NCBI GenBank assembly: GCA_035495255.1
Contig: DATJGD010000012.1
Location: 34,775 to 98,774, forward strand
DNA: 64,000 nt
From: Bacteroidota bacterium
Lineage (GTDB): Bacteria > Bacteroidota > Ignavibacteria > UBA10030 > SZUA-254
Direction: 5' to 3'
Numbering within the stretch: position 1 is the stretch's first letter; each line of letters opens with the position of its first letter. This document shows positions 44,198 to 57,578 of this stretch, in pieces. The notes under the pieces are model-generated. The model was not told where the DNA came from and searched no databases. It was given only the letters and a program-made list of their open reading frames with translations. A program made the position numbers and the translations under genes.

Positions 44198-44237
44198 TAT
44201 TTTTTCATTTCCTGATCTTCGACAAAATCCTTTAAAT

Positions 44238-44742: not shown

Positions 44743-44883
44743 ATGGTACAACGAATTTTTCTTGCGGGCTTTGTTCTTGTCTTCGCGTTCTCATTTGTGA
44801 CACTGGCGATCGCCCAGGACACAATGAGGCGTGACACAACGGGGCATAATTATATGAAGCAGGACACAGCAGATGCGCCATGA
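44743..44883 (+). CDS. signal peptide plus Met/Asp-repeat N-terminal fragment of a DUF1059-like secreted protein (frame-disrupted relative to the downstream ORF)
   Basis: RBS AAGGAG 7 nt upstream. MVQRIFLAGFVLVFAFSFVTLAIAQ signal peptide. Ends at TGA 44881-44883, which overlaps the ATG of the next ORF. The paralogue at 61844-62182 carries the same signal peptide, repeat and domain in one frame. Confidence 0.5.
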   Translation: MVQRIFLAGFVLVFAFSFVTLAIAQDTMRRDTTGHNYMKQDTADAP

Positions 44884-45167
44884 ACCGGGACATGAAGAAC
44901 GGGGAAATGAATGACCGGGACACGTTCAATCGCGGCATGAAGGGGCAACGGGGAATGAACAACAACCAGGAAATGTCGGGCTCTCTCCAATCGGCCACAT
45001 GCGACATCTGCGGATTCATGGTCCGAAGCCACAACGAGAAAGAGATCGCTTCGATCATGAAAACACATCAAAAGAAATATCATCACAAGACCGTCTCCGA
45101 CAAGGACGTCAAGGACATGATTCGAAACGATCAGAGTCATTCGGAAAATGATATCAAGCAGCAATGA
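44880..45167 (+). CDS. DUF1059-like small metal-binding-type domain protein (C-terminal part; probably the frameshifted continuation of 44743-44883)
   Basis: Met-rich repeats (MNRDMKNGEMNDRD...GMKGQRGM), then CDICGFMVRSHNEKEIASIMKTHQKKYHHK, matching the CxxCGF....E.E......H....H pattern recalled for DUF1059 and the paralogue at 61844-62182. Confidence 0.6.
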   Translation: MNRDMKNGEMNDRDTFNRGMKGQRGMNNNQEMSGSLQSATCDICGFMVRSHNEKEIASIMKTHQKKYHHKTVSDKDVKDMIRNDQSHSENDIKQQ

Positions 45168-45194
45168 TGAATCTGACGTATCGCCAATAAAGAA

Positions 45195-45220
45195 CCCCGT
45201 CATCGACGGGGTTTTTTCTT
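45195..45220 (+). terminator. rho-independent terminator after the DUF1059-like gene
   Basis: CCCCGTC-atc-GACGGGG hairpin followed by TTTTTTCTT. Confidence 0.6.
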
Positions 45221-45283
45221 GGCGTACTGCAATCGTAAGCCATTGCCGCACAAGTACTTATATGATATTACAAATCGCACTCA

Positions 45284-48200
45284 TTATTGAGACACTCGCC
45301 GCGAAGCGTCTGCCATCTCGCCGATGACCTTTGCAGCTGCTGCCAATCGCAGTTGGGGATCCGCCGTCGCCGGCAGTGCGGTCTGCAGAGTGAGATCCTT
45401 TCCTTGCTGGCGGAGTTGAATGTTTTTCAGACTCTTGTCCGCTAACTTTCGCATGATCAATTGAAACGGAGACTCCGCGTCACTCTGTGTCCCGTAGAAT
45501 TTGTCATCGGAGGAATCCGGCAGGGTCACGACGAGGGTCTGACCTTTCAGGGAAACTTTTATGAAATTGCCGCCGGCCGCGATCAGCCGCAGCGTCATGA
45601 GCCCTGTGAGGTGTTCCACTTCTTCCGGGTACTGGCCAAACCGGTCGACAAGCTCTTCCCTGATATTTTTCAGCTCCGCTTCCGAGCGCACCTTGTAGAG
45701 GCGGCGATAAAGATCCAACCGTTCAGTATCTGATTCAACGTAAAAGTCCGGGATAAGTGCTTCAATGTCCGATTCTATGATTGTTTCCGGAAGATGCGGT
45801 TCTGCGCCGGACACCTGCGCGGTGAAGAGTTCTTTGAACTCTTCTTCCTTGAGCTCTTCGACCGCCTCTCTCACGATCCGCTCATACATTTCAAATCCCA
45901 TTTCCATGATGAATCCGGATTGCTCCGCGCCGAAGACATTTCCGGCGCCGCGAATTTCCAGGTCGCGCATCGCGAGATTGAAGCCGGAGCCGAGTTCCGA
46001 AAACTCTTCGATCGCCTGCAGGCGGCGGAGCGTCTGTTTCGGCAGAATGCCGAGCGGCGGGACGAGAAGATACGCGTAGGCCTGGATATTCGAACGCCCT
46101 ACCCTCCCACGGAGCTGGTAGAGCTCCGCGAGCCCAAACCGGTCAGCCCGGTTGATAATGATCGAATTCACGCTCGGAATATCGAGCCCGGATTCGATAA
46201 TCTTCGTGGCAACCAGCACGTCGAACTTTTTCTCCAGAAAGTCCATCATGGTCTGCTCGAGTTCGTGCCCTTTCATCTGGCCGTGCGCGGCGTGAACCCG
46301 GGCATGCGGTACATGCGTTTTGATCTGGCTTGTGATCGTGTCGATATTCTGCACCCGGTCGTGGACCACGTAGACCTGTCCTCCCCGGTGAAGCTCTTTC
46401 ATGATCGCTTCCCGGAATATATTCCAGTGCGCCTGGCGCCCTTCGGAGGCAGGAATAATTTCGGTGATGATGGGGAGTCTGTTTCTCGGCGGCGTGGAAA
46501 TAAGCGAGAGATCCCGCGCACCCATAAGAGAAAAATGGAGCGTTCTCGGAATCGGCGTGGCGGTAAGCGACAGCGTATCAACGGTCGCTTTCAGCTGGCG
46601 AAGTTTTTCTTTCGCGGCAACTCCGAACCTGTGCTCTTCGTCGATGATGAGAAGACCCAGGTCTTTGAACGCGATGTCTTTTGAAAGCAGCCTGTGCGTA
46701 CCGATGACAATGTCGACCGATCCGCCGCGCAGCGCCTCCACGACATTCTTCTGCTCCTTCTTCGACTTGAACCGTGTAAGGTGCTCTATGCGCGTAGCAT
46801 AGCGCGAGAGCCGGTCATGAAACGTATTGTAATGCTGGAGCGCGAGGATCGTCGTCGGCACGAGCAGTCCCACCTGCTTCCCATCCATGACGGCTTTGAA
46901 TGCCGCACGGACCGCGACCTCCGTCTTGCCAAAGCCGACGTCGCCGCAGATCAGCCGGTCCATCGGCGACGAGCTTTCCATATCCTGCTTAACTGCAAGC
47001 GTCGCGCTTGCCTGATCGGGAGTGTCTTCGTACATAAAGGACGCCTCAAGTTCCTTCTGCCAGTGGGAATCCGGGCTGAAGGCGGTGCCGTGTTCGTGCT
47101 TGCGGCGGGCATAGAGCTTCATGAGATCGCGCGCGATATCTTTGACCCGTTTTTTCGCGCGTGCTTTTGCTTTTTCCCACTCCGGCGTTCCGAGCTTGTT
47201 AAGAACCGGAGCATGTCCTTCCGCCGAAGAATATTTCTGAACGCGGTTGATGAAGTTCAGGTTCACGTAGAGGACGTCATCCTCCAGAAAATGCATTTTC
47301 ATGACTTCCTGTTCGATGCCGCCGACCGTCAGCTTCTTGAGGCCGTCGAACACGCCGATCCCGTGGTCCACGTGGACGACAAAGTCTCCGCGCCGAAGCT
47401 GCTGAACCTCTTTCTGAGAAAATCCTTTGAACCGCTTCCGCTTCGCAAGGCCTCTTCGCCTCAGCCGTCCGAAAATCTCATGCTCGGTAAATACGACGAG
47501 ACGTTCAGGATGGTAAATGAAACCGGAATGGATGGTTTCGGAAAGAAATTTCGGAGCAATCTTCTGCAACCGTGCTTCGTCAACCTCCTCCGGCTCGTTA
47601 TGTTCTTCTACCGAACCGTCACCGCCGGCGTGAAATCGGCCGCCCGGTTCAACTTCGGGGTTTCCGGACGGGGTTTCTTCAATGAGCTCTTTCAGCCGGT
47701 CAGATTCGGCTTTCATATCGCTCGTCAGCAGGACAGAATATCCTTCGGCCGTGAATTTCCTGAGTGCTTCTACTAATCTGCCGATGCTTCCGTTGAACGC
47801 GGGCTGGGGCGCCGCGGAGAACGTAAGATCCGAAGATTGATTACGGATCGGAGAGCTTTCAATGACCCGGAAGCGAGCGAGCTGGACGTTTATTTCCTCC
47901 GCTGAGAATAATCCGGCGGCTTCTTCCGCCAGCCGTTCAGTGATTTCCCGATCAATGCTTGCAGGATCATCCAGCACCACGAGGCTATTTTCCCCGATAT
48001 AATCGAGAAGCGAAGAGGTGCGCGCGGATGTGTCCGTGGCTTCCTTCTCTCCGGGAGCCGCCTGCCCTGTGCCCTCTTCCCCGGGCGCGCTTGATTGGAG
48101 AGCGGGGACAATGCTCGCAGATTTCATTTGGCGGATCGATCGCTGAGAGAGCGCGTCGAATTCCCGGATGGATTCGACAGTGTCGCCCCAGAATTCCAGC

Positions 48201-48796
48201 CGGAGAGGATTGTCTCCCGCATACGAGAACACATCGATAATGCCGCCGCGGACCGCAATGTCGCCGTAGCTTTCGACAAACTGTTTTCGTTCGAATCCCA
48301 GCGATTCAAGATTTTCGATGAGCTCCCGGAACTTGTACTGCTTGCCTGAATCAACTTCCACGATTCTTTTAGTGAAGGCGCGCGGCGGCGGCAGTTTTTC
48401 TGCGATCGATTGCGCCGACGCAACGACGATCAAACGTAGATCAGACGAAATCGATTTCAGCGTTTCTATTTGCGAAATCGAAGAGGTCATATCGAGCGTC
48501 TGCGCCGAGTGCGCCGGGCTGGATCCGAAGAACCGGACACGATCTTCTCCTGCGAGAATCGCACAATCGTCTCGAAGTTTTTCCGCGCGCTCCTGATCCG
48601 AACCGATGAGCAAAACATTTTTGACGCCCGGAGAAGTATCTCCTCCCTCTTCGAAGAGGTTGACCGCAACGAACGCGAGAAGAGATCCGGCGGCGCCGTC
48701 AACGACGAGCGGCTTCCCCGGGTGGAGTGATCCAGCCTTCTTCGCAAGGGCTTTGAACTCGGCCGAACGGTATATTTTTTCCTTGATTTCCTTCAA
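45284..48796 (-). CDS. mfd: transcription-repair coupling factor Mfd
   Basis: 1170 aa. UvrB-homology N-terminus, RNAP-interaction domain, superfamily-2 helicase motifs (GDVGFGKTEVA, DEEHRFG), TRG motif. Confidence 0.95.
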   Translation of the reverse strand: MKEIKEKIYRSAEFKALAKKAGSLHPGKPLVVDGAAGSLLAFVAVNLFEEGGDTSPGVKNVLLIGSDQERAEKLRDDCAILAGEDRVRFFGSSPAHSAQTLDMTSSISQIETLKSISSDLRLIVVASAQSIAEKLPPPRAFTKRIVEVDSGKQYKFRELIENLESLGFERKQFVESYGDIAVRGGIIDVFSYAGDNPLRLEFWGDTVESIREFDALSQRSIRQMKSASIVPALQSSAPGEEGTGQAAPGEKEATDTSARTSSLLDYIGENSLVVLDDPASIDREITERLAEEAAGLFSAEEINVQLARFRVIESSPIRNQSSDLTFSAAPQPAFNGSIGRLVEALRKFTAEGYSVLLTSDMKAESDRLKELIEETPSGNPEVEPGGRFHAGGDGSVEEHNEPEEVDEARLQKIAPKFLSETIHSGFIYHPERLVVFTEHEIFGRLRRRGLAKRKRFKGFSQKEVQQLRRGDFVVHVDHGIGVFDGLKKLTVGGIEQEVMKMHFLEDDVLYVNLNFINRVQKYSSAEGHAPVLNKLGTPEWEKAKARAKKRVKDIARDLMKLYARRKHEHGTAFSPDSHWQKELEASFMYEDTPDQASATLAVKQDMESSSPMDRLICGDVGFGKTEVAVRAAFKAVMDGKQVGLLVPTTILALQHYNTFHDRLSRYATRIEHLTRFKSKKEQKNVVEALRGGSVDIVIGTHRLLSKDIAFKDLGLLIIDEEHRFGVAAKEKLRQLKATVDTLSLTATPIPRTLHFSLMGARDLSLISTPPRNRLPIITEIIPASEGRQAHWNIFREAIMKELHRGGQVYVVHDRVQNIDTITSQIKTHVPHARVHAAHGQMKGHELEQTMMDFLEKKFDVLVATKIIESGLDIPSVNSIIINRADRFGLAELYQLRGRVGRSNIQAYAYLLVPPLGILPKQTLRRLQAIEEFSELGSGFNLAMRDLEIRGAGNVFGAEQSGFIMEMGFEMYERIVREAVEELKEEEFKELFTAQVSGAEPHLPETIIESDIEALIPDFYVESDTERLDLYRRLYKVRSEAELKNIREELVDRFGQYPEEVEHLTGLMTLRLIAAGGNFIKVSLKGQTLVVTLPDSSDDKFYGTQSDAESPFQLIMRKLADKSLKNIQLRQQGKDLTLQTALPATADPQLRLAAAAKVIGEMADASRRVSQ

Positions 48797-48979
48797 ATGT
48801 ATTTTTCGGAATTCGAATGGCGTTGCCTTCTTGGCGAAAACACTCTACCCCTACTCGCTCCGTTTGAGGGAAAAAGTAAGGGTTATCCATAAGTTACGCA
48901 TCGCCCCAGGGATTTGCAAAAAGAACTTGCAAGAAATACGCGCATTGTACATTAGTATTGTTGTGAATATATTGAGCCT

Positions 48980-49402
48980 ATGGACGATCCGATCAAAGTA
49001 ACGAGCCATTTGTCTATCCCACTGGGAGAATTAGAATTCCATTTCGCACGGAGCGGCGGTAAGGGAGGGCAAAACGTCAATAAGGTGGAAACGAAGGTCG
49101 AGCTGTTTTTCGATGTTGAGCATTCAGCGAGCCTTTCTGATCATCATCGCAACAAACTCATGTCGGAGCTGAGGTCCCGCCTCGACAGCCGGGGGATGCT
49201 GAGAATTGTCGCCCAGGACTCGCGAAGCCAGTGGCAAAACCGCGAGCTTGCGGTTGAGCGTTTGGTCGAAGTCCTGCAAGCTGCGCTCAAAACGAAGAAA
49301 AAGCGGGTTGCGACGAAAACGCCGGCCGCGGCGAAGGAGCGGCGGCTTGTGGAGAAGAAGCGGCGGGGAATCATCATTCGCTCCCGGAGAATCGAGGACT
49401 AG
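48980..49402 (+). CDS. arfB: alternative ribosome-rescue factor ArfB (peptidyl-tRNA hydrolase, RF-1 GGQ domain)
   Basis: 140 aa. SGGKGGQNVNKVETKV (GGQ motif) plus a basic C-terminal tail (KKKRVATKTPAAAKERR...). Confidence 0.85.
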   Translation: MDDPIKVTSHLSIPLGELEFHFARSGGKGGQNVNKVETKVELFFDVEHSASLSDHHRNKLMSELRSRLDSRGMLRIVAQDSRSQWQNRELAVERLVEVLQAALKTKKKRVATKTPAAAKERRLVEKKRRGIIIRSRRIED

Positions 49403-49428
49403 CCGGCTTTTGACTTTAGCAGAGTCCT

Positions 49429-49710
49429 TTAGGCAGCCGGTTTCCCGGCCTGCGGCGCTCCGAGAATCTTATTTGCCATCCACACCGACAGCAAGAAGAT
49501 GCCGAGAATTAATCCGAACGCGAGCAGCCATGAGAGATAAATTTCGAAAGCAATAAGGAAGGTAAGAACGATTGTAAGAATTCCGATATTGATCAGCTGC
49601 AGTAAAAAGGCGTTACGCCGCTTCTCATACTTGGGAATGATCCCAAGCCACTCCGATACCAGGGAGACCGCGATCGAGACTGCAATTATTTCGAGGGCAA
49701 AAAGAAACAT
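49429..49710 (-). CDS. small hypothetical membrane protein (3 TM)
   Basis: Start chosen at MFLFALEIIAVSIAV (M53 of the track ORF), which avoids overlap with the end of thyX. Purely hydrophobic. No recognisable family. Confidence 0.4.
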   Translation of the reverse strand: MFLFALEIIAVSIAVSLVSEWLGIIPKYEKRRNAFLLQLINIGILTIVLTFLIAFEIYLSWLLAFGLILGIFLLSVWMANKILGAPQAGKPAA

Positions 49711-49792
49711 ATCGTAATTGGTTTTCCTGTCTTTACGATATGATGGGTAGAAAGTTGGCGGAGGAGAGGGATGGCCCCGGTAAGCTCCAGAA

Positions 49793-50668
49793 TTAAGCCT
49801 TTTTCTCCGGATGAGCAGCCAGGCCTTCAAGTTTCTCCAGAAACTCTTCGGCTTCTCGTTTTCCAAATCCCTTCGATTCCAGATATTCCTGCGTGACCCC
49901 GTCCTTTGTAAGACGCTCGCCGATCACCGCCATCTCGAGACGTGAGAACTTCTGGCTCTTGAGAATATAATCCTCAAATGCTTCCCAGGCGAACGGCGCC
50001 ACGCATTTTGCGATCTCCGCCATTGCTTCTCCGTATACCCGGATCTCATACTGCGCGTGGGGATCGATGCGCAACCGCAGAAAATGGAAGAGATTGTGCA
50101 GATCGATCTTCCAGTACCATTCGGTGTACAGCGAGAGCGGAAGATTGATGCGGGCAAGCTCGCGGGCGATGTCGGATTCGAGCATCTGCTCGTACTCGCC
50201 GTATAATTTTTCCTGCGAAGAGGTTAAGATATGCAGCACGTTCATGCGCAAGTCGGCCGGCACATCCTCGTCGCGGCGCCCCTGCTTGTTCTGAAGGCTT
50301 TGGAAATGTATCGCGTGGTGCTCGGGAACGTAAAACTCATCTTTCATGACCGAATAGCGGCCCGAGTATTCGTTCACGTTCGCCGTGCGGTGGCGGATCC
50401 ATTGGCGGGCGACAAAGATCGGCAGCTTGATGTGGAACTTGAGCTCGACCATTTCGAACGGCGTCGTGTGAAGGTGCCGCATGAGGTAGCGGATGAGGCC
50501 GCGGTCCTCATTGACGGTCTTTGTTCCCTTCCCGTAGGAGACGCGCGCAGCCTGGACGATCGATTCGTCTCCACCCATAAAATCGACAAGGCGGACAAAG
50601 CCCGCGTTGAGACATTTGAACTCTTTATCTAAGACTGCTTCTGCCGCCGGGTTCGAAACGTGTGCCAT
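49793..50668 (-). CDS. thyX: flavin-dependent thymidylate synthase ThyX
   Basis: 291 aa. RHRTANVNEYSGRYS (the ThyX RHRxxxxxS motif). Confidence 0.9.
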   Translation of the reverse strand: MAHVSNPAAEAVLDKEFKCLNAGFVRLVDFMGGDESIVQAARVSYGKGTKTVNEDRGLIRYLMRHLHTTPFEMVELKFHIKLPIFVARQWIRHRTANVNEYSGRYSVMKDEFYVPEHHAIHFQSLQNKQGRRDEDVPADLRMNVLHILTSSQEKLYGEYEQMLESDIARELARINLPLSLYTEWYWKIDLHNLFHFLRLRIDPHAQYEIRVYGEAMAEIAKCVAPFAWEAFEDYILKSQKFSRLEMAVIGERLTKDGVTQEYLESKGFGKREAEEFLEKLEGLAAHPEKKA

Positions 50669-50787
50669 GGAGTGTTGGACTGTTGAGTGCGGTTCAATGT
50701 ACTAATTAGAGCGGAGAAAGCCAAGAGGAAAACGGCGGTCCCGCTCATCGCCGTTGTATCTTGTCCCGCCTTTGACTATCTTTTTCA

Positions 50788-51195
50788 ATGCAAAGAGTCG
50801 CGGTCGGAATTTTATTGAATAACGGCAAGATCCTCCTCTGCCAGCGGAAACGCACGGCGGCGAAGTACCCTCTGAAATGGGAATTCCCCGGAGGCAAAAT
50901 CGAAGAAGGGGAATCCGCCGAGCAATGCCTTCGCCGCGAGCTTGTGGAAGAATTGGGAATTCAGGCGAATGTCGGGCTCCTCTATCATCAGCAGCACGCG
51001 CTCTACTCCGACGGCAGGGAATACGACGTCTTCTATTATGTCGTTCCGAACTTTACCGGCGTCATGACGAATCATGTGTTTGAAGAGTATATCTGGATCC
51101 CGGTCCGGGAGTTTCCTTCGTACGATATTCTGGAAGGAAATAAGGATGTTATGAACAAACTGCTTGCGGACGATGATCTTCACCGACCGGGTTAA
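50788..51195 (+). CDS. Nudix hydrolase, MutT-like (8-oxo-dGTP diphosphatase candidate)
   Basis: 135 aa with an intact Nudix box GGKIEEGESAEQCLRRELVEELGI (Gx5Ex7REUxEExGU). Confidence 0.8.
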   Translation: MQRVAVGILLNNGKILLCQRKRTAAKYPLKWEFPGGKIEEGESAEQCLRRELVEELGIQANVGLLYHQQHALYSDGREYDVFYYVVPNFTGVMTNHVFEEYIWIPVREFPSYDILEGNKDVMNKLLADDDLHRPG

Positions 51196-52075
51196 GCTGC
51201 GGCGCCTGCACCGTTCAGTTGAATCGTGGTATCGCAATCATCGCCGGGACCTTCAATGGCGAACGACGCGGGACCCCTATGAGATTCTTGTGTCGGAGAT
51301 TATGCTGCAGCAGACGCAGGTCCGCCGCGTCCAGGAAAAACTCCCCATATTTTTGAAACGCTTTCCGGACTTTACGGCACTCGCCCGCTCACAAAAGAGC
51401 GACGTCATCCGGGCCTGGGAAGGGATGGGCTACAACAACCGGGCCGTCCGGCTCAATGAGCTCGCACGAATCATTGTGAAGGAACATCACTCCCGGCTTC
51501 CATCGGATATCGCGACGCTCCAGTCTCTTCCCGGCATCGGCCCATATACCGCGCACGCCTTGACATCGTTCGCATTCCGAAAACGCGTGCCTGTTGTCGA
51601 TGTGAATATCCGCCGCGTCTTCTCCCGAATTTTCACAACAGGAAAAATGTTGTCCGACCGGGATGCATGGAAACTTGCTGAGAAAGTATTGCCGGCATCC
51701 GCGTTTACATGGAACCAGGCGCTCATGGACCTGGGAGCCGTGATCTGCACGGCTCGCAAACCGGCGTGCCCATTGTGTCCCATTGCGCGATTGTGTTCGT
51801 CGCGATCGGTTATCAAGAGAATGCCGGCCGTAGCGAAGACGAATCCGGAACCTTCATATCACGGACTTCCCCGCCGCATCTGGCGCGGAAAGATTGTTCA
51901 AGCCCTGCGAAATTCTCCGCGCAAACAAGTCCGTCTCTCCTCGTTGGCCGGAGCAATTCGGCTTACGGCAGCAGATCAGCCATGGATCGGCGAGCTGGTC
52001 CGTCATCTCGAAAAAGACGGATTGATCGTCACCCGGAAAATTACAAATACAACATATGTCTCCCTCGCGGCATGA
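51164..52075 (+). CDS. HhH-GPD [4Fe-4S] DNA glycosylase of the MutY/Nth family lacking the MutY C-terminal Nudix-like domain
   Basis: HhH motif LPGIGPYTAHAL. Catalytic-Asp region. FeS loop CTARKPACPLCPIARLC (Cx6Cx2Cx5C). The C-terminal ~90 aa are unrelated to the MutT fold. Overlaps both neighbours. Confidence 0.75.
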   Translation: MRTMIFTDRVKLRRLHRSVESWYRNHRRDLQWRTTRDPYEILVSEIMLQQTQVRRVQEKLPIFLKRFPDFTALARSQKSDVIRAWEGMGYNNRAVRLNELARIIVKEHHSRLPSDIATLQSLPGIGPYTAHALTSFAFRKRVPVVDVNIRRVFSRIFTTGKMLSDRDAWKLAEKVLPASAFTWNQALMDLGAVICTARKPACPLCPIARLCSSRSVIKRMPAVAKTNPEPSYHGLPRRIWRGKIVQALRNSPRKQVRLSSLAGAIRLTAADQPWIGELVRHLEKDGLIVTRKITNTTYVSLAA

Positions 52076-52703
52076 CAAGGTCACCCTTGCGCAAGCGAAC
52101 ATCGTTCGCTTGTTCAACGAGCGGAGAGTCGCAATTCAAACGCGGCTTGAGGAATTCAAACAGGTCCCTTCTTCCGAATATTTTTACGAGCTCGTCTATT
52201 GTCTCCTGACCCCGCAGTCGAGCGCGGTGAACGCCGGCCTGGCCGTCGAACTGCTGCGGAGGCACGACCTGTTCGGTTCCGAAATCAACCCCGAACCCCT
52301 CCTCCACCAGAAAGAGTTTTACATCCGGTTTCATAAGACGAAGGCAAAACACCTGCTTGCCGTCAAGGAAGGCTATTCCGCCATTGCGGGGCAGCTCTCC
52401 AACGGGACAACCAGCGTGGAATTGCGGGAATGGCTCGTCGTGAATGTGAAAGGGCTGGGCTGGAAGGAGTCCTCGCATTTCCTCCGGAACATCGGTCACG
52501 AAGACCTCGCCATACTTGACCGGCATATCCTGAGAAATCTTGTGCGCTTAAAGGTCCTTCATCGCCTTCCGCCAACCCTTACAAAGAAGCGGTATTTGGC
52601 AATCGAGAAAAAATTTTTTAAGTTTGCACAGCAAATTGGCATCCCGATGGATGAGCTCGACCTCCTCTTCTGGAGCATGGAGACGGGCGAAATTCTTAAA
52701 TAG
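52056..52703 (+). CDS. Ogg2/archaeal-type 8-oxoguanine DNA glycosylase / AP lyase (N-glycosylase/DNA lyase)
   Basis: 215 aa. HhH-GPD motif ...VKGLGWKESSHFLRNIGHEDLAILDRHI with catalytic K and D, and the length of the Ogg2 family. Confidence 0.7.
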   Translation: MSPSRHDKVTLAQANIVRLFNERRVAIQTRLEEFKQVPSSEYFYELVYCLLTPQSSAVNAGLAVELLRRHDLFGSEINPEPLLHQKEFYIRFHKTKAKHLLAVKEGYSAIAGQLSNGTTSVELREWLVVNVKGLGWKESSHFLRNIGHEDLAILDRHILRNLVRLKVLHRLPPTLTKKRYLAIEKKFFKFAQQIGIPMDELDLLFWSMETGEILK

Positions 52704-52709
52704 AATACT

Positions 52710-53876
52710 ATGAAAGCACTTGTACTCGGAGCCGGAATGATGGGCAGCGCCATGGCGTACGACCTGGCCCATTCTCCCGGCGTTGAAAAGATCATCCTCG
52801 CGGACATCAATGAAGATGCCGCACGGTCAGTTGCGGTGAGAACTGCGAAGCACGTCGAGCCGCGGAAGCTCGATATCAATTATTTTGACGAGGTTGTCGA
52901 CCTTATGGGGGGCGTCGACGTCGCTCTTGGAGCGACAAGCTACACACACAATGTCCTTCTGACAAAAGCCGCGATCGAAGCGAAAGTCCATTTCACCGAT
53001 CTTGGCGGCAACATGGATGTCGTCTATAAACAGATGGCTTTCGACGCGCAGGCGCGCGCCGCAAATATTCTTATTCTCCCCAACTGCGGCCTTGCTCCGG
53101 GGATGGCGTGCGTTATTGCCGCCGGCGGCGCAAAGAAGTTCAGCGACGTGCGGGAAATTCACATACGGGTAGGGGGCCTTCCGCAGCATCCCCAGCCCCC
53201 GCTGAATTACCAGCTCGTCTTTTCTCCCGAAGGACTGATCAACGAATACATCGAACCCGCCGAAGTGATCCGGGCCGGCGAGCCGCTCACGGTTGAATCA
53301 ATGGTGGATCTTGAAGAGCTGGAGTTCCCGAAACCGTTCGGGAAAGTCGAAGCGTTCAACACCTCGGGCGGAACGTCGACCCTGACCCGGATGTTCAAGG
53401 GGAAAGTCAAAGAACTCGATTACAAGACGATCCGCTACAAAGGCCATTGCGAAAAATTCAAGACACTGCTGGATCTCGGATTCGGGAGCTCGGAACCGGT
53501 GACCGTCGGATCGCATGTGTTCACGGCCCGCGAGTACTTCGAGCATTTATTGAAAAAAAAGCTTCCGATGAACGGGCCCGACGTGGTGCTCACGCGCGTC
53601 ACGATAAAAGGCATAATGAACGGGGAAGGAAAGACCCTGAACTACGAAATGGTCGATTACTTCGACCAGGTCGCCGGGCTGACGTCCATGATGCGCACGA
53701 CCTCCTTTCCGACATCGATCATCGCACAGATGGCCGCGAACGGGACGATCACAACGCGCGGAGTCGCTCCGCCCGAACAGTGCGTTCCTCTCGATCCCTT
53801 CATCGCGGAGCTTAAGAAGAGAAATATTATTATAAAAGAAACCTCCTCAAAGATCCTTTCGTTCGGTGAGAAATGA
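52710..53876 (+). CDS. saccharopine dehydrogenase-family NAD(P)-dependent oxidoreductase
   Basis: 388 aa. N-terminal Rossmann MKALVLGAGMMGSAMAYDL, and a Sacchrp_dh_C-like C-terminal half. Confidence 0.75.
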   Translation: MKALVLGAGMMGSAMAYDLAHSPGVEKIILADINEDAARSVAVRTAKHVEPRKLDINYFDEVVDLMGGVDVALGATSYTHNVLLTKAAIEAKVHFTDLGGNMDVVYKQMAFDAQARAANILILPNCGLAPGMACVIAAGGAKKFSDVREIHIRVGGLPQHPQPPLNYQLVFSPEGLINEYIEPAEVIRAGEPLTVESMVDLEELEFPKPFGKVEAFNTSGGTSTLTRMFKGKVKELDYKTIRYKGHCEKFKTLLDLGFGSSEPVTVGSHVFTAREYFEHLLKKKLPMNGPDVVLTRVTIKGIMNGEGKTLNYEMVDYFDQVAGLTSMMRTTSFPTSIIAQMAANGTITTRGVAPPEQCVPLDPFIAELKKRNIIIKETSSKILSFGEK

Positions 53877-54020
53877 AACGGCCGCTCTCAGTGGTGATCA
53901 TATCGAAGAACCCGAAAACGATGCAGGAGACGCATAACCGGTTCGACACGCAAACGAGTTTTCCGAGGGTGCGGTTATTCTTTATATTCTTAAAGGCTTT
54001 TTTTACAGGACATTTCTGAA

Positions 54021-54518
54021 ATGGCAGATTCGTTTTCATTTGACATCGTATCGAAGGTCGACATGCAGGAGGTCGACAACGCGCTCAATCAGGCCCGCAA
54101 GGAGATCACACAGCGGTACGACTTCAAGGGATCCAAGACCTCGATCGATCTCAATCAGAAAGAATTCGAGATCGTCATTATCTCCGACGATGAATTCAGG
54201 ATGAAATCCGTCATCGACATCCTCCAGGGAAAGTTCGTGAAGCGAAATGTGCCGCTGAAGGCGCTCACCTACGGCGCCATAGAACAGGCGTCCGGAGGCA
54301 CGGTGCGTCAATCGATCAGGCTGCAGAACGGAATCGACAAAGAGAACGCGAAGCATATTACAAAAATGATCAAGGACTCGAAGCTGAAAGTCCAGGCGCA
54401 GATCATGGACGACCAGGTTCGGGTCACCAGCAAGAGCAAAGACGATCTGCAGTCTGTCATGGCGCTGGTGCGAGGGGCAGACCTGAAATTCGCGGTCCAG
54501 TTTGTCAATTACCGGTAA
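54021..54518 (+). CDS. yajQ: YajQ-family nucleotide-binding protein (UPF0234)
   Basis: 165 aa. [24 protein letters not shown]...YDFKGS, the hallmark YajQ N-terminus. Confidence 0.85.
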
Positions 54519-54519
54519 C

Positions 54520-56097
54520 ATGCGCTCGCTCAGACTTGGGCTATATTTCCTGCTGTTTACCTCGTTCGCCTTCGCGCAAAACTCTCTCCCGGTAACGTTT
54601 CTCCAGGCTCCTTCGCGCAACTCCCACATCGGCAAGTTTACGCGGAACGGAATGACCTACGGATCGCTCGACGATCTGGCGCGGGTGTTCGTCATTGATA
54701 CCTATGCCGATTCGGACGCCGCGAAAATGGAGTTGAGAACCGAAGCCTACACCATCACGGCGAGCGCCGGCAACCCCTTCATTGTATTGACCGACCTTCA
54801 GCACAATAGCAACGTCGTGCAGATGCCGGCCGAGGTCCGCTTCGCCGCAGGGAGCTATTTTGTTCCGCTCGAATCGTTTATCCCCATCCTGGATTATATC
54901 TCCCCGGAAGCGATCGCTTTCGACCGGGTGCGCACGGCTGTTATTGTCGGAACGGTGACTCCTGTTTCGCGCTTCGACGTCACCGGCGTGGATTTTGAGC
55001 AGAAAACCAACGGTTATCTGGTAAAAATTCACTGCGCGAAAAACCTGCCGGACTACGAGACATTTCTGAAGATCGACGGCGACGACACCTGGTTGTACGT
55101 CACGATCGCCGACGCGCGCGCCGACGAAGCGGCATTCAAACGAATACGCCCTTCCGGATTCGTGAAAAAAATTATGGTGTTCCAGTCCCCCACCTCCGTT
55201 CAGCTGACGATCCGCATCAAAGGCCAGATGGACAGCCATGAGCCAATCGCCTCTCCGGGCAGCAACGATATCTTCGTCGCGATCCGGCCTTCAACCGAAG
55301 AGCAGTCGGCAAAATATAAAGAACGCGAATACCAGCACAACCTCGAACGCGAGCGGAAACGGTGGAAGCTGGATGTCGTCGTCATCGACGCCGGCCACGG
55401 CGGGAAAGACCCCGGGACGATCGGCGTGACGAAGACGAAGGAAAAAGACGTGACGCTGGCGATCGCGCTCAAGCTGGGAAAGCTCCTTGAAAAGCAGCTC
55501 CCCGGCGTCCGTGTCGTCTACACGCGAAAGACCGATGAGTTTATTGAGCTGTACCGCCGCGGACAGATCGCCAATGAATCGGGCGGGAAGCTCTTCGTGA
55601 GCATTCACTGCAACGCCATGCCGCGGAAGCCGCGGTCGACGAGCGGATTTGAGATCTATCTCCTCCGTCCCGGTAAGACGGAGAAGGCGATCAGCATCGC
55701 TGAACGGGAAAACGCCGTCGTGAAAATGGAAGAAGGGTACGAGCAGCGGTACAAAGAGCTCACAGAGGATAATTTTATTCTCATGACGATGGCGCAAAGC
55801 GCCTATGTGAAGTACAGCGAACAGTTTGCGGATATCCTGCGGCAGGAAATGGGAAAGCGACTCGACCTCGACAACAACGGCACGAAGCAGGCAGGGTTTT
55901 ACGTACTTGTCGGGGCATCGATGCCGAACGTGCTTGTCGAAACAGGGTATCTGTCCAACACTCACGACGAAAAGATCCTCAAGAGCACGAAGGGACAGCA
56001 GAAAATTGCAGAATCGATTTTTTACGGAATCAAGAAGTACAAGACAGATTATGAGCGCTCGCTTCAGGAAGGCGCCTCCATCGGATCAACGAGATAA
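54520..56097 (+). CDS. N-acetylmuramoyl-L-alanine amidase (AmiC-like, with N-terminal AMIN-type domains)
   Basis: Signal peptide MRSLRLGLYFLLFTSFAFAQ, two beta-rich AMIN-like modules, then an Amidase_3 core (VVIDAGHGGKDPG...SIHCNA...E). Confidence 0.85.
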   Translation: MRSLRLGLYFLLFTSFAFAQNSLPVTFLQAPSRNSHIGKFTRNGMTYGSLDDLARVFVIDTYADSDAAKMELRTEAYTITASAGNPFIVLTDLQHNSNVVQMPAEVRFAAGSYFVPLESFIPILDYISPEAIAFDRVRTAVIVGTVTPVSRFDVTGVDFEQKTNGYLVKIHCAKNLPDYETFLKIDGDDTWLYVTIADARADEAAFKRIRPSGFVKKIMVFQSPTSVQLTIRIKGQMDSHEPIASPGSNDIFVAIRPSTEEQSAKYKEREYQHNLERERKRWKLDVVVIDAGHGGKDPGTIGVTKTKEKDVTLAIALKLGKLLEKQLPGVRVVYTRKTDEFIELYRRGQIANESGGKLFVSIHCNAMPRKPRSTSGFEIYLLRPGKTEKAISIAERENAVVKMEEGYEQRYKELTEDNFILMTMAQSAYVKYSEQFADILRQEMGKRLDLDNNGTKQAGFYVLVGASMPNVLVETGYLSNTHDEKILKSTKGQQKIAESIFYGIKKYKTDYERSLQEGASIGSTR

Positions 56098-57578
56098 TGT
56101 TAAAGAAGCTTCGCATATCGACAAAATTATTGCTGACGATCTTTCCGCTTCTTCTTCTGGGAATCGGGACGAGTATCTATCTCAATAACCGGTACCAGGA
56201 GCAGGAGATGCTCGCCCAGGCGCAGGCTTCCGCGCAAACTGCCGCGGACATCTTGCGCGAATCGCTCGTCAACATGATGACGACCCGGTTAAAGGTCGAC
56301 GACGGGTACCTCTCCCAGCTTGCTTCGATCCGCGATCTCCGGAACCTTCACATCCACTTCCGCACCGATAGCCTTCATCTGCGCGACATGTACCAGGATG
56401 ATGAGCGCATCGCCCGCCTGCGAAACCGCGAGCAGATGATTCCGCCCATCGAAGCGCATGAACGGGAAGTGTTCAGCACCGGAGAGCCGATGTGGCAGCG
56501 CAAGGGAGACATGTTCAACGCGATCATTCCCTTCAAGGCGGTCGAAAAATGCCAGACGTGTCATGAAGTCCCGCCGGGCTATGTCCTCGGCGCGGCGGAA
56601 ATGGATATTTCGCTCGAACGGATTTCTGCGGCCGTGAACAGTAATTGGACACGATCGCTCTGGATCTTCGGAATTTTTATGACGGCCGCACTGGTGCTCT
56701 GTCTTGTTGTCTACCACATCGTGGTGCATCAAAATATGCGGCACCTCGTGGACGCAACGATTGCGATAGGACGGGGGAATCTTACGGACGAGCATTTGAA
56801 GCAGATCCATTCCGGCGACGAGCTCGGCGATCTCGCCCGCGCGTTTGACATGATGCGCTCAGAGCTCAATAATGCGCAGCAGAAAGTCATCCATACCGAA
56901 CGCCTTTCAATGGTGGGCCAGATGGCGAGCTCGATCGTGCATGATTTCCGGACCCCGATGAGCACCATCAATCTCGCGATTGAATCGCTGCAGAAAGGGA
57001 TGAACTTCACGCCGGAAAAGACCCAGGAATGGTACCGGATGATACGCGACGCCGTTCAGCGTATGGTGACGATGGCCCAGGAGCTTCTGGATTTTTCACG
57101 CGGCGACGTCCGGCTCGAAAAAGTTGAATTCCCGATACCGGAGTTTACGCATTTGTTGGTTAAGAGCGTCAAGCCGAGCCTCGATCAGGCGCACATTAAA
57201 TTAAAGATAGAGGAAAAATACAGCGGGACAGCGCTGGTGGACCCCGAGCGGCTCCAGCGCGCCTTCATTAACATCATTAACAACGCGCAGGACGCTATGT
57301 CGTCGGGAGGAATTCTCAACATCGCCACCGGGAGAGACGACGGCCATGTAACATTTAGCATTGCCGACACGGGAAAAGGCATACCGCCCGAGATCAAAGA
57401 TACCATCTTCGACGCGTTTGTCACCGCGGGGAAAAAGAAAGGGACCGGCCTGGGGCTGGCTATTACAAAACGCATTGTTGATCAACACAGCGGGGAAATC
57501 TTCGTTGCCAGCGAGAGCGGAAAAGGGACGACCTTCACAATAAGAATACCGCTCGGAGATACCTCGGACGACGATTAA
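56097..57578 (+). CDS. sensor histidine kinase with a periplasmic domain carrying a CXXCH motif
   Basis: TM1, a ~150-aa periplasmic domain containing FKAVEKCQTCHEVPPG, TM2, HAMP, HisKA (HDFRTPM) and HATPase_c (GTGLGLAI). No response regulator adjacent. Confidence 0.85.
   Translation: MLKKLRISTKLLLTIFPLLLLGIGTSIYLNNRYQEQEMLAQAQASAQTAADILRESLVNMMTTRLKVDDGYLSQLASIRDLRNLHIHFRTDSLHLRDMYQDDERIARLRNREQMIPPIEAHEREVFSTGEPMWQRKGDMFNAIIPFKAVEKCQTCHEVPPGYVLGAAEMDISLERISAAVNSNWTRSLWIFGIFMTAALVLCLVVYHIVVHQNMRHLVDATIAIGRGNLTDEHLKQIHSGDELGDLARAFDMMRSELNNAQQKVIHTERLSMVGQMASSIVHDFRTPMSTINLAIESLQKGMNFTPEKTQEWYRMIRDAVQRMVTMAQELLDFSRGDVRLEKVEFPIPEFTHLLVKSVKPSLDQAHIKLKIEEKYSGTALVDPERLQRAFINIINNAQDAMSSGGILNIATGRDDGHVTFSIADTGKGIPPEIKDTIFDAFVTAGKKKGTGLGLAITKRIVDQHSGEIFVASESGKGTTFTIRIPLGDTSDDD

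What the first reader, a model, noticed from the sequence alone, without database searches (positions are those of the whole stretch)
50788..52703. All three functions of the 8-oxoguanine (GO) repair system in one overlapping operon, with a domain-swapped MutY
A canonical-Nudix MutT-like hydrolase, a MutY/Nth-type FeS glycosylase that lacks MutY's C-terminal Nudix-like 8-oxoG-recognition domain and instead has a ~90-aa basic tail, and an Ogg2-type 8-oxoG glycosylase are encoded with 32-nt and 20-nt overlaps. These are unlinked in E. coli (mutT/mutY/mutM). The free-standing Nudix gene immediately upstream of the truncated MutY suggests a split or permuted arrangement, or a Mig/Nth-like enzyme recruited into a GO operon.
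Basis: partly seen in the sequence, partly recalled or inferred. Interest (0 to 1): 0.55.

Follow-up and report, generated by a model that had tools for sequence, protein, structure and literature searches.

The report
8-oxoguanine repair operon, X-domain MutY
Three overlapping genes in an Ignavibacteria-like bacterium encode the predicted functions of the 8-oxoguanine defence, and its MutY keeps its iron-sulfur cluster but carries, instead of the usual MutT-like domain, the winged-helix 'X domain' so far reported only in cluster-less MutYX.

Summary
Three overlapping + strand genes at 50788-52703 encode a Nudix hydrolase, an FeS HhH-GPD glycosylase and an Ogg2.

- **Nudix:** it belongs to the MutT/NudG clade, has an intact Nudix box, and keeps the Asn that matches MutT Asn119.
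- **Glycosylase:** its core is MutY-type, not Nth or Mig. The ~80-aa "basic tail" is a folded winged helix. Profile links tie it to the X domain of MutYX (PDB 8UUC), which recognises 8-oxoG through Arg209. The aligned Arg235 is invariant here.
- **Novel point:** unlike MutYX, this protein keeps all four cluster cysteines. The MutYX paper reports the X domain only in cluster-less enzymes.
- **Ogg2:** it passes NCBIfam's equivalog cut-off and keeps the Lys/Asp pair.
- **Operon evidence:** the trio, with its overlaps, is uninterrupted in every one of about 17 relatives with enough sequence, while the flanks vary. In four relatives the Nudix and MutY genes are fused into one ORF.

The "split MutY" and "Mig/Nth recruit" readings are not supported. 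All activities are inferred. I rate it a new variant of a known kind, of moderate interest.

The parts
50669..50787 (.). 119-nt divergent intergenic region between thyX (- strand) and the Nudix gene. It is the presumed promoter region of the operon.
   Evidence: This is inferred from gene layout only. The sigma-70 consensus scan found nothing above the shuffled background here, and that scan does not cover Bacteroidota-type promoters.
50788..51195 (+). MutT/NudG-clade Nudix NTP pyrophosphohydrolase, 135 aa. The Nudix box is aa 36-58 (nt 50893-50961). Asn118 matches MutT Asn119.
   Evidence: Pfam NUDIX gives 83.5 bits. NCBIfam gives NudG 79.7 and mutT TIGR00586 78.9, both below their equivalog cut-offs. 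The best solved relatives are NudG 2rrk, 3ees and MutT. BLASTP to E. coli MutT gives 31% identity with Asn119 aligned. The Nudix box and the 'ILEGN' motif are conserved in 10 orthologues.
51173..52075 (+). [4Fe-4S] MutY-type adenine glycosylase with a C-terminal X-type winged-helix domain, 300 aa. An alternative TTG start lies at 51164.
   Evidence: TIGR01084 mutY scores 218 bits over profile positions 2-220 of 277, against 81 for nth. Foldseek places Gs, Ec and human MutY on top at 34-37% identity. The AF2 model has pLDDT 90. The family has about 300-330 aa and is annotated as A/G-specific adenine glycosylase in Ignavibacteria and Bacteroidota MAGs.
51296..51601 (+). Catalytic and lesion-contact residues of the MutY core: Glu42 (51296-51298), Gln47/Thr48, Tyr87, Tyr125, Asp143 (51599-51601), Asn145 and Arg148. 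Gln182 lies further downstream.
   Evidence: All are invariant in 24 family members. Their equivalence to Gs MutY E43, Q48, T49, Y88, Y126, D144, N146 and R149 and to Ec Q182 comes from motif alignment and my own knowledge of MutY. The OG-face residues are as listed in PMC12631127.
51746..51796 (+). [4Fe-4S] ligand motif: Cys192-x6-Cys199-x2-Cys202-x5-Cys208.
   Evidence: All four Cys are invariant in 24 sequences. Pfam EndIII_4Fe-2S matches. The spacing is the one given for MutY in PMC12631127.
51842..52072 (+). X-type winged-helix domain, aa 224-300 (helix 234-247, helix 255-261, helix 266-281, beta hairpin 285-298). Invariant Glu226 (51848-51850) and Arg235 (51875-51877) align with MutYX Gln201 and Arg209.
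   Evidence: The AF2 model of the tail alone has pLDDT 90.5. Foldseek finds ArsR, MarR and HlyU winged helices at TM about 0.65, and no Pfam family matches. hhalign of A2 against the actinobacterial/Chloroflexi tails A4 gives 94% probability, E 9e-8. The A4 profile hits 8uuc_A residues 199-269 as the top PDB hit, E 2e-5. The broad profile A5 hits 8uuc_A residues 201-269 at E 0.0024, rank 2.
52056..52703 (+). Ogg2-type 8-oxoguanine DNA glycosylase/AP lyase, 215 aa. The catalytic residues are Lys137 and Asp155.
   Evidence: Pfam Ogg-HhH gives 162.9 bits. NCBIfam NF002305 gives 186.9 bits, above its cut-off of 183. The best solved relatives are M. jannaschii Ogg 3fhf and 3knt. The motifs GWKESSHFLRN and ILDRHI align with GYKEASHFLRN and IIDRHI.
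52710..53876 (+). Saccharopine-dehydrogenase-like oxidoreductase. It starts 6 nt after the ogg stop and may be co-transcribed. It has no evident link to GO repair.
   Evidence: Pfam Sacchrp_dh_C and Sacchrp_dh_NADP match. The gene usually follows ogg in relatives, but it is absent or separated in L006, L096 and L105.

Best explanation
This is a co-transcribed, translationally coupled three-gene operon that carries the predicted functions of the 8-oxoguanine (GO) defence of an Ignavibacteria-like bacterium.

1. **Nudix hydrolase.** A MutT/NudG-clade enzyme is predicted to hydrolyse oxidised (d)NTPs, most likely 8-oxo-dGTP, before they are incorporated.
2. **MutY-type glycosylase.** A [4Fe-4S] enzyme is predicted to flip out and excise adenine mispaired with 8-oxoG, using the canonical Glu42/Asp143 chemistry. 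In place of the usual dead-MutT C-terminal domain with its FSH loop, it reads the 8-oxoG through a winged-helix X domain of the kind solved in cluster-less MutYX. Invariant Arg235, at the start of the first helix, would contact the lesion. Invariant Glu226, in the linker, would support it. In MutYX these positions are Arg209 and Gln201.
3. **Ogg2 glycosylase/lyase.** With Lys137 and Asp155, it is predicted to remove 8-oxoG paired with C. That is the role Fpg/MutM plays in E. coli.

Coupled expression fixes the ratio of the three proteins. This makes sense because MutY acting without MutT can fix mutations when 8-oxo-dGMP has been inserted opposite template A.

**Shown:** the gene layout, the domain identities, the conserved residues, the fold of the tail, the profile link to the X domain, the conserved synteny and the fusions.
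**Inferred:** every enzymatic activity, cluster binding, the role of Arg235 and co-transcription.
For: **Layout**
- Overlaps are 23 or 32 nt and 20 nt in the window.
- In orthologous loci the Nudix/MutY junction overlaps by 4-32 nt in 9 of 10 loci, with a 14-nt gap in L006. The MutY/ogg junction overlaps by 1-20 nt (4 nt in most) in 11 of 12 loci, with a 62-nt gap in L001.

**Gene identities**
- The MutY core is supported by PDB sequence and fold searches and by invariant catalytic, OG-face and cluster residues.
- The Nudix box and the Asn119 equivalent are conserved.
- The Ogg2 score is above the curated cut-off, and the Lys/Asp pair aligns to MjaOgg.

**X domain**
- The tail is a winged helix with pLDDT about 90.
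- The tails form a sequence continuum: Ignavibacteria 'EPxYxGIPRRIWRGK', then Chloroflexi 'FAGSxRYYRGR', then Actinomycetota 'FEGSDRQxRGR', then MutYX 'QSTFEGSRRQKRAELV'.
- hhalign between the first and third groups gives 94% probability, E 9e-8.
- The profiles hit the 8UUC X domain at E 2e-5 (rank 1) and E 0.0024 (rank 2).
- In the Foldseek list, MutYX has by far the longest alignment to the full model (297 columns). Canonical MutYs align over 217-250 columns.
- PMC12631127 shows experimentally that Arg209 and Gln201 of that domain confer OG:A specificity.
- In an NJ tree of 79 catalytic cores, all 25 X-type cores plus 3 core-only proteins separate from 51 canonical MutYs.

**Functional linkage**
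- The trio is uninterrupted in about 17 loci, while insertions and rearrangements occur on both sides of it.
- Four diverged proteins fuse Nudix, MutY core and X domain in one ORF (46-59% identity to P0142), each followed by ogg where the DNA was read.
Against: - No activity, cofactor or transcript has been measured.
- The Nudix scores below the equivalog cut-offs for both MutT (78.9 against 97.9) and NudG (79.7 against 156). Its best solved relatives are NudG and a Bdellovibrio pyrophosphohydrolase rather than MutT. The substrate could therefore be another (d)NTP.
- The link from the window's own tail family to the 8UUC X domain is transitive. Neither a direct hhalign of the family profile against the single 8UUC sequence nor the A2 profile search of the PDB was significant.
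- Winged helices are common, so independent acquisition is not strictly excluded.
- The position matching MutYX Gln201 is Glu here.
- The residue numbering of 8UUC against the paper rests on an assumed offset of 2.
- The interdomain geometry of the AF2 model is uncertain (pTM 0.67).
- Much of the wider 10-gene neighbourhood is also syntenic in these relatives. Conserved adjacency on its own is therefore weak evidence of coupling.
Confidence: 0.72

Rival explanations
1. Split or permuted MutY. The Nudix protein is the missing OG-recognition domain of MutY, supplied in trans (or in cis at the N-terminus in the fused relatives), and is not a nucleotide-pool sanitiser.
For: - The Nudix also matches Pfam NUDIX_4, the model built around MutY's C-terminal domain, at 44.4 bits against a cut-off of 35.
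- It shares about 50% identity over its first 60 residues with the C-terminal domains of some canonical MutYs.
- The genes are translationally coupled.
- Four relatives fuse Nudix and MutY into one polypeptide.
Against: - All Nudix-box catalytic residues are invariant in 10 orthologues and in the fusions, which indicates selection for hydrolase activity.
- There is no H-x-FSH-type loop. The matching stretch is MutT-like.
- The glycosylase already carries an X domain, with the Arg that recognises OG in MutYX.
- In the fusions the Nudix is N-terminal, not at the position of the canonical C-terminal domain.
Confidence: 0.08
2. The winged-helix tail was acquired independently of the MutYX X domain. 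It acts as a generic DNA-binding or protein-interaction module, for example for processivity or autoregulation of the operon, and not as an OG reader.
For: - A direct profile-to-sequence comparison with 8UUC is not significant.
- Foldseek of the tail lists many ArsR and MarR regulators at similar scores.
- No Pfam family matches.
Against: - The junction motif [EQ]-x2-[FY]-x-G-x(1,2)-x-R-x2-R-[GA] sits at the same place, directly after the MutY core, across Ignavibacteria, Chloroflexi, Actinomycetota and 8UUC.
- There are significant profile-profile and profile-PDB links.
- The cores of X-type enzymes form one group in the NJ tree.
- The Arg that aligns with the MutYX OG contact is invariant.
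Confidence: 0.12
3. The glycosylase is not an adenine glycosylase. It is a Mig-type T:G/U:G mismatch glycosylase or an Nth-like enzyme that happens to sit between two oxidative-damage genes.
For: - Mig.MthI (1kea) is a close structural and sequence match: 33% identity, TM similar to the MutY cores, and 184 bits against 218 for Gs MutY with the family profile.
- The protein is below the TIGR01084 cut-off.
Against: - The shortfall on TIGR01084 is explained by the missing C-terminal part of the profile (positions 221-277).
- nth scores only 81 bits.
- The Nth lysine position is Tyr125.
- The two positions reported to switch Mig from T/G to A/G are already MutY-like, Val50 and Gln182. The Mig data are from my own recollection of the literature and were not checked here.
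- The OG Watson-Crick-face residues Gln47/Thr48 and the intercalating Tyr87 are invariant.
Confidence: 0.05
4. The Nudix is a NudG-like or RppH-like house-cleaning enzyme acting on, for example, 5-methyl-dCTP, CTP or RNA 5' ends. The cluster is then a looser 'nucleic-acid hygiene' neighbourhood and not a dedicated GO system. The MutY and Ogg assignments stand.
For: - The best solved relatives are E. coli NudG (63 bits) and Bdellovibrio 3ees (60.6 bits), ahead of MutT (44 bits).
- NCBIfam scores for NudG and MutT are equal and both sub-threshold.
- thyX and mfd are also nearby.
Against: - The Asn matching MutT Asn119 and the MutT-like 'LKWEFPGGK' segment are conserved.
- The gene is translationally coupled to, and in four cases fused with, an OG:A-type glycosylase, next to an OG glycosylase.
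Confidence: 0.2

Closest known systems
MutYX (Eggerthella sp. cluster-less adenine glycosylase, PDB 8UUC; Trasvina-Arenas et al., NAR 2025, PMC12631127)
   Same: Both have a MutY-type catalytic core followed by a short three-helix plus beta-hairpin X domain (67-80 aa) instead of the MutT-like domain. The Arg at the start of the first helix, which recognises 8-oxoG in MutYX (Arg209), is invariant here as Arg235. The paper also places cluster-less MutYX forms in Chlorobi, the sister group of Ignavibacteria.
   Different: The window's enzyme keeps the canonical Cys-x6-Cys-x2-Cys-x5-Cys ligands, invariant across its family, whereas absence of the cluster is what defines MutYX. It has Glu where MutYX has Gln201. 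It keeps the catalytic Asp, whereas Eggerthella uses Glu. Sequence similarity of the X domains is detectable only through intermediate profiles.
Canonical MutY (E. coli; Geobacillus stearothermophilus, e.g. PDB 1RRQ, 6U7T; TIGR01084)
   Same: The catalytic Glu/Asp pair, the HhH-GPD fold, the [4Fe-4S] motif, the OG Watson-Crick-face residues and the intercalating Tyr are shared. Core identity is 34-37%.
   Different: There is no MutT-like C-terminal domain and no FSH loop. The TIGR01084 score of 218 is below the cut-off of 286, and the match stops at profile position 220 of 277.
E. coli GO system (mutT, mutM/fpg, mutY)
   Same: By annotation-level evidence it has the same three lines of defence: pool sanitation, OG:C excision and adenine excision from OG:A.
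   Different: The E. coli genes lie at distant loci in separate operons (PMC11078426). Here they overlap in one unit. The OG glycosylase is an archaeal-type Ogg2 rather than Fpg.
MutT / NudG Nudix hydrolases (PDB 1MUT, 2RRK)
   Same: Size (135 aa), Nudix box, 31% identity to MutT with Asn119 aligned, and top HMM and PDB hits.
   Different: It is below both equivalog cut-offs. The substrate is unassigned. In some relatives it is fused to the N-terminus of MutY.
Ogg2 family (M. jannaschii Ogg, PDB 3FHF/3KNT; NF002305)
   Same: It is a full-length match above the curated cut-off, with the Lys and Asp catalytic motifs conserved.
   Different: It is a bacterial member embedded in an operon with mutY and a mutT-like gene.
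Mig.MthI thymine-DNA glycosylase (PDB 1KEA)
   Same: It is a core-only [4Fe-4S] HhH glycosylase of similar core sequence (33% identity).
   Different: Mig has no C-terminal domain. The window's protein carries MutY-type residues at the specificity positions and an extra X domain.

Membership tests
MutY (canonical, TIGR01084) | HhH-GPD core with the catalytic Glu (Gs E43) and Asp (Gs D144) | tested here: met
   Glu42 in 'SEIMLQQTQV' and Asp143 in 'VVDVNIRRV' are invariant in 24 homologues. The core aligns to Gs, Ec and human MutY.
MutY (canonical, TIGR01084) | [4Fe-4S] ligands Cys-x6-Cys-x2-Cys-x5-Cys | tested here: met
   C192, C199, C202 and C208 are invariant. Pfam PF10576 matches. Actual cluster binding is not testable here.
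MutY (canonical, TIGR01084) | C-terminal MutT-like (Nudix-fold) domain with the H-x-FSH OG-recognition loop | tested here: not met
   There is no NUDIX or NUDIX_4 hit in the glycosylase. The TIGR01084 match ends at position 220 of 277 and scores 218 against a cut-off of 286. The tail folds as a winged helix.
MutY (canonical, TIGR01084) | Adenine excision opposite 8-oxoG | not testable with these tools
   This needs glycosylase assays.
MutYX (PMC12631127) | C-terminal X domain replacing the MutT-like domain | tested here: met
   The evidence combines fold and transitive profile links. A2 against A4 gives hhalign 94%, E 9e-8. A4 hits the 8uuc_A X domain at E 2e-5, rank 1. A5 hits it at E 0.0024, rank 2. 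The direct comparison was not significant.
MutYX (PMC12631127) | OG-recognition pair Gln201 / Arg209 | tested here: inconclusive
   The Arg is conserved (Arg235, invariant). The Gln position is an invariant Glu226. The mapping assumes a 2-residue offset between the chain and the paper's numbering.
MutYX (PMC12631127) | Absence of the [4Fe-4S] cluster, with compensating helix changes | tested here: not met
   All four Cys ligands are present and invariant. The protein therefore works like MutYX in lesion reading but does not fit the cluster-less definition.
Endonuclease III (Nth) | Catalytic Lys in the HhH 'GVGxKTA' motif, and an equivalog-level score | tested here: not met
   The motif here is 'GIGPYTA', with Tyr125. 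TIGR01083 scores 81 against a cut-off of 211.7.
MutT 8-oxo-dGTPase (TIGR00586) | Nudix box G-x5-E-x7-REUxEExGU | tested here: met
   The box is aa 36-58 and is conserved in 10 orthologues.
MutT 8-oxo-dGTPase (TIGR00586) | Equivalog-level similarity | tested here: not met
   The score is 78.9 bits against a cut-off of 97.9. NudG scores equally, 79.7 against 156.
MutT 8-oxo-dGTPase (TIGR00586) | Asn119, the base-recognition residue of E. coli MutT (its role is from my own knowledge) | tested here: met
   Asn118 aligns with Asn119. It is invariant in the 'LEGN' motif of the orthologues.
Ogg2 (NF002305 / Pfam PF22175) | Score above the curated cut-off, plus the catalytic Lys and Asp | tested here: met
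   The score is 186.9 against a cut-off of 183. Lys137 and Asp155 align with the MjaOgg motifs and have the same 18-residue spacing.
Operon (co-transcribed unit) | One transcript spanning the three genes | not testable with these tools
   There is only indirect evidence: overlapping reading frames, an uninterrupted trio in about 17 loci, and fusions. The promoter and terminator scan was uninformative.

The most novel reading that the evidence does not exclude
The X-type MutY and its MutT-like neighbour form a physical complex, covalently joined in the four fused relatives. An active 8-oxo-dGTPase would then be tethered to the adenine glycosylase.

This clade also includes core-only glycosylases followed by free-standing Nudix genes (L024, L033). 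Elsewhere there are canonical-length MutYs whose C-terminal domain still has a perfect Nudix box (L015, L019, L073). Together these could preserve living stages of the gene fusion that is thought to have created MutY's dead-MutT domain.

On this reading the X domain with a cluster would be an old, widespread alternative solution to OG recognition, not a by-product of cluster loss.
Probability: 0.15. Interest if true: 0.8.

Novelty: new variant of a known kind. Interest (0 to 1): 0.55.

Why it matters
MutYX was presented in 2025 as a case of 'devolution', in which loss of the [4Fe-4S] cluster went together with acquisition of a new OG-recognition domain. PSI-BLAST in that work found the X domain only in cluster-less enzymes (PMC12631127).

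The family in this window carries an X-type domain together with a fully conserved cluster motif. Similar tails appear on cluster-bearing MutYs of Chloroflexi, Actinomycetota and other phyla. If this holds, domain replacement and cofactor loss were separate events, and Arg-based reading of 8-oxoG is much more widespread than one small clade.

The operon and the Nudix-MutY fusions also give a compact, clonable test bed. It could be used to ask whether MutT and MutY activities need to be stoichiometrically or physically coupled, and how MutY's C-terminal domain arose.

For genome annotation, these proteins are currently labelled plain 'A/G-specific adenine glycosylase' despite lacking the domain that defines MutY specificity.

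Tried and rejected
- **Pfam on the tail alone at E up to 10.** Only noise came back (SWIRM, MarR, CodY at 13-14 bits), so there is no family assignment.
- **Ignavibacteria-type tail profile (A2) against the PDB.** 8UUC was not found and only weak MarR/PadR hits appeared. A direct hhalign of A2 against the 8UUC X-domain sequence was not significant. The link needed the intermediate Chloroflexi and Actinomycetota tails.
- **Metagenome scan with the 22-sequence tail alignment.** The 8-sequence version returned only 21 loci.
- **Genome scan.** These were useful as an outgroup but give a biased sample.
- **Broad tail profile A5 against the representative library.** A2 was used instead.
- **Sigma-70 promoter and terminator scan.** Counts were at the shuffled background level, with nothing usable upstream of the Nudix.
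- **Neighbours of distant X-type MutYs.** There is no recurrent partner. Only scattered pairs appeared (GreA, Fe/Mn SOD, Clp), and no Nudix or Ogg.
- **Literature searches.** I searched for a mutT-mutY-ogg operon, a winged-helix MutY, Ignavibacteria MutY and Nudix-MutY fusions. Nothing relevant turned up beyond the MutYX and Lost City papers.
- **Supplement of the MutYX paper.** It is not held.
- **First NJ/bootstrap script.** It timed out and was rerun with a faster distance calculation.
- **tRNA and Rfam scans of the window.** Both were empty.


Full report
**What is there**

- a 135-aa Nudix protein at 50788-51195;
- a glycosylase at 51164-52075 from a TTG start, or 51173-52075 from the ATG start used by public gene calls (300 aa);
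- a 215-aa protein at 52056-52703.

The overlaps are 32 nt (23 nt from the ATG start) and 20 nt. Upstream, thyX is transcribed divergently. Downstream, a saccharopine-dehydrogenase-like gene starts 6 nt after the third stop codon.

**The flanking enzymes**

*Nudix.* It has a perfect Nudix box at aa 36-58. Its best family matches are NudG (79.7 bits), MutT TIGR00586 (78.9 bits) and the MutT-like part of PRK08999 (83 bits). All are below the equivalog cut-offs. ADP-ribose pyrophosphatase models reach only about 18 bits.
- The best solved relatives are E. coli NudG (2rrk), a Bdellovibrio pyrophosphohydrolase (3ees) and several MutTs.
- Against E. coli MutT it is 31% identical over 123 residues, and Asn118 aligns with MutT Asn119. 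I validated my copy of the MutT sequence against 1mut.
- In ten orthologues taken from syntenic loci, the Nudix box, 'LKWEFPGGK' and the C-terminal 'ILEGN' are conserved.
- It is therefore an active hydrolase of the MutT/NudG clade. Its substrate is not settled by sequence.

*Ogg.* The third protein is an Ogg2. Pfam Ogg-HhH gives 163 bits, and NCBIfam NF002305 gives 186.9 bits against a cut-off of 183. The best solved relative is M. jannaschii Ogg. GWK137ESSHFLRN and ILD155RHI align with its catalytic Lys and Asp motifs.

**The glycosylase core**

The core is MutY, not Nth or Mig.
- It scores 218 bits on TIGR01084 (mutY) against 81 on nth. The mutY match stops at profile position 220 of 277, which explains why it falls below the 286-bit cut-off.
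- An AlphaFold model built on 24 homologues has mean pLDDT 90. Its best PDB matches are Gs, Ec, human and mouse MutY at 33-37% identity, followed by Mig.MthI at 33% and EndoIII at 20-25%.
- The invariant residues in the family include the catalytic Glu42 and Asp143, Asn145 and Arg148, Gln47/Thr48, Tyr87, Tyr125 at the position of the Nth lysine, Gln182, and Cys192-x6-Cys199-x2-Cys202-x5-Cys208.
- In PMC12631127, Gln47/Thr48 are the residues that read the Watson-Crick face of 8-oxoG and Tyr87 is the intercalating tyrosine.
- From my own knowledge, the two positions that switch Mig from T/G to A/G are already MutY-like here (Val50 and Gln182).

**The tail**

Residues 224-300 are conserved across the family. 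Glu226, Arg235, Arg238, Gly239, Arg246, Trp271 and Leu279 are invariant.
- The tail folds with pLDDT about 90, both in the full model and alone, as helix-helix-helix-beta hairpin.
- Foldseek finds ArsR/SmtB, MarR and HlyU winged helices at TM about 0.65. No Pfam family matches.

The decisive lead came from the literature. MutYX, a cluster-less MutY from Eggerthella (PDB 8UUC), carries a 67-residue 'X domain' of three helices and three short strands in place of the MutT-like domain. It recognises 8-oxoG through Arg209, at the start of the first helix, helped by Gln201 in the linker (PMC12631127).

Tails of MutY homologues collected from other phyla form a graded series:
- Ignavibacteria type: 'EPxYxGIPRRIWRGKIV';
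- Chloroflexi: 'FAGSxRYYRGRIV';
- Actinomycetota and Dormibacteraeota: 'FEGSDRQxRGRLV';
- MutYX: 'QSTFEGSRRQKRAELV'.

The statistical links are as follows:
- The window's family profile aligns to the actinobacterial/Chloroflexi profile with 94% probability, E 9e-8.
- That second profile finds the 8UUC X domain (residues 199-269) as the best hit in the whole PDB, E 2e-5.
- A combined 29-sequence profile finds it at rank 2, E 0.0024.
- In the Foldseek list, 8UUC has by far the longest alignment to the full model, 297 columns against 217-250 for canonical MutYs.
- In these alignments, invariant Arg235 falls on MutYX Arg209 and invariant Glu226 falls on Gln201. This assumes a two-residue offset between the deposited chain and the paper's numbering. 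The 8-residue Q-to-R spacing fits that assumption.

**How this differs from MutYX**

MutYX is defined by the absence of the [4Fe-4S] cluster. Its authors report that PSI-BLAST with the X domain finds only cluster-less MutYs, in an actinobacterial clade and an Entamoeba/Chlorobi clade. The window's family keeps all four cysteines without exception. So do most of the Chloroflexi and Actinomycetota proteins with X-type tails.
- In an NJ tree of 79 catalytic cores, all 25 X-type proteins plus three core-only proteins fall on one side of a single split, and 51 canonical MutYs fall on the other. The best bipartition has F1 0.94, with a bootstrap mean of 0.95. The sample is biased towards relatives of the window.
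- A profile search of 1.84 billion cluster representatives with the Ignavibacteria-type tail found 427 proteins at E up to 1e-3. Most listed hits place it at or near the C-terminus of roughly 300-aa proteins or fragments of them.
- A few metagenomic members with the same tail have a reduced ligand set, C-x9-C-x2-H-x(1-2)-[HC] (L094, L098, L100). They may be on the way to cluster loss.

**Is it an operon?**

- The Nudix-MutY-Ogg trio occurs in the same order and orientation in every related locus with enough sequence. The complete loci are L006, L081-L084, L086, L087, L089, L096, L106, L108 and L110. The partial loci L001, L002, L091, L097, L101 and L111 are consistent with it.
- Glycosylase identity in these loci is only 43-62%.
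- Reading frames overlap by 4-32 nt at the first junction in 9 of 10 loci. At the second junction they overlap by 1-20 nt, most often 4 nt, in 11 of 12 loci.
- Much of the wider neighbourhood (mfd, an RF-1-domain gene, thyX, the trio, saccharopine dehydrogenase, yajQ, an amidase) is also syntenic. Adjacency alone therefore proves little.
- However, insertions and losses occur on both sides of the trio and never inside it. Between thyX and the Nudix they occur in L084 and L106. Between ogg and the dehydrogenase they occur in L105, L006 and L096.
- The strongest evidence is the fusions. Four diverged proteins (P0142, P0270, P0271 and P0174; 46-59% identity to P0142) fuse the Nudix, with its box intact, to the N-terminus of the X-type MutY. 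In the two loci read (L104 and L105), ogg follows directly.
- More distant X-type MutYs (Cryosericum, Ktedonobacter, Actinomycetota and several metagenomic ones) have no Nudix or Ogg neighbour and no other recurrent partner. The operon is therefore specific to this Ignavibacteria/Bacteroidota-labelled lineage.
- I found no paper describing such an operon or fusion. The Lost City MutY study states that the E. coli GO genes are at distant loci in separate operons (PMC11078426).

**Most likely mechanism**

The unit expresses, in fixed proportion, three predicted activities.
1. The Nudix is a pool sanitiser.
2. The glycosylase is an OG:A adenine glycosylase. It uses MutY chemistry in the core and MutYX-style, arginine-based reading of the lesion in the X domain.
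3. Ogg2 takes the Fpg role of removing 8-oxoG paired with C.

All activities, cluster binding and co-transcription are inferred.

The rival 'split MutY' reading has the Nudix acting as a trans-acting OG reader. It is disfavoured by the conserved catalytic residues, the lack of an FSH-type loop and the presence of the X domain. The fusions still leave room for a physical MutT-MutY partnership.

**Verdict**

A GO operon and a domain-replaced MutY are supported. A truncated or split MutY and a Mig/Nth recruit are not.
- The item is a new variant of a known kind: an X-domain MutY that retains its iron-sulfur cluster, embedded in, and sometimes fused into, a GO operon.
- It would interest specialists because it separates X-domain acquisition from cluster loss and offers a natural system for testing MutT-MutY coupling.

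Noticed in passing
L104:550-1827; L105:4001-5314; proteins P0270, P0271: These are single ORFs of 425-437 aa that fuse an intact-box Nudix domain to the N-terminus of the X-type MutY. In L104 and L105 each is followed directly by ogg. The three P0142-type fusions are 56-59% identical to P0142 and the fourth (P0174) is 46%, so they are not one sequencing artefact.
   Followed up: partly
L094, L098, L100 (glycosylase ORFs ending at about 5213, 5213 and 1083): These X-tailed MutY homologues have a reduced cluster motif in place of the four-Cys motif: 'C-x9-C-x2-H-x(1-2)-[H/C]'. An example is 'CTAKNPKADLCPLHHRH'. They could be cluster-less, or they could use a different metal site. They may resemble the Chlorobi/Entamoeba MutYX clade.
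   Followed up: partly
L024:284-1057 plus a Nudix ORF ending at 1503; L033: ORF ending at 5715 plus a Nudix ORF ending at 6104: These are core-only FeS glycosylases, ending 15-27 aa after the cluster motif, that group with the X-type clade. Each is followed by a separate gene for a Nudix protein with an intact box. This is the canonical MutY domain order, but as two genes.
   Followed up: partly
L015:5923-7083, L019:5860-7125, L046, L068, L073: These are canonical-length MutYs (Anaerolineae and others). Their C-terminal domain keeps a complete Nudix box, for example 'GGKREKGESLEDCLRREICEELGI', together with an H-x-[FY]-T-H-F motif. They might be bifunctional, or transitional forms.
   Followed up: no
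window 45284-50668: The upstream neighbourhood is conserved in relatives: Mfd transcription-repair coupling factor (45284-48796, -), an RF-1-domain (ArfB-like) protein (48980-49402, +) and ThyX (49793-50668, -). Together with the operon this makes a small genome-maintenance neighbourhood.
   Followed up: partly
window 52710-57578: This is a co-directional downstream run: saccharopine-dehydrogenase-like (52710-53876), YajQ (54021-54518), Amidase_3 protein (54502-56097) and a HAMP/HisKA kinase (56097-57578). Most of it is syntenic in relatives. A small 46-50-aa ORF is called between the dehydrogenase and yajQ in L081, L104, L108 and L110. It corresponds to about window 53873-54019.
   Followed up: no
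L081-L110 compared with the window: Within the conserved neighbourhood the glycosylase is the fastest-evolving gene. It is 43-59% identical, against 51-73% for Ogg, 77-91% for ThyX and 65-87% for YajQ.
   Followed up: no
P0123 (1217 aa): This long protein matches the X-tail profile in 18 separate stretches, each covering only profile positions of about 30-56. It is probably an unrelated repeat protein.
   Followed up: no
window 12001-14000 and 44001-46000: There are two composition outliers. AT skew reaches -0.317 over the 1139-aa ORF on the - strand (11592-15011). GC dips to 0.489 around 44-46 kb, against about 0.55 elsewhere. No tRNA or Rfam family was found anywhere in the 64 kb.
   Followed up: no
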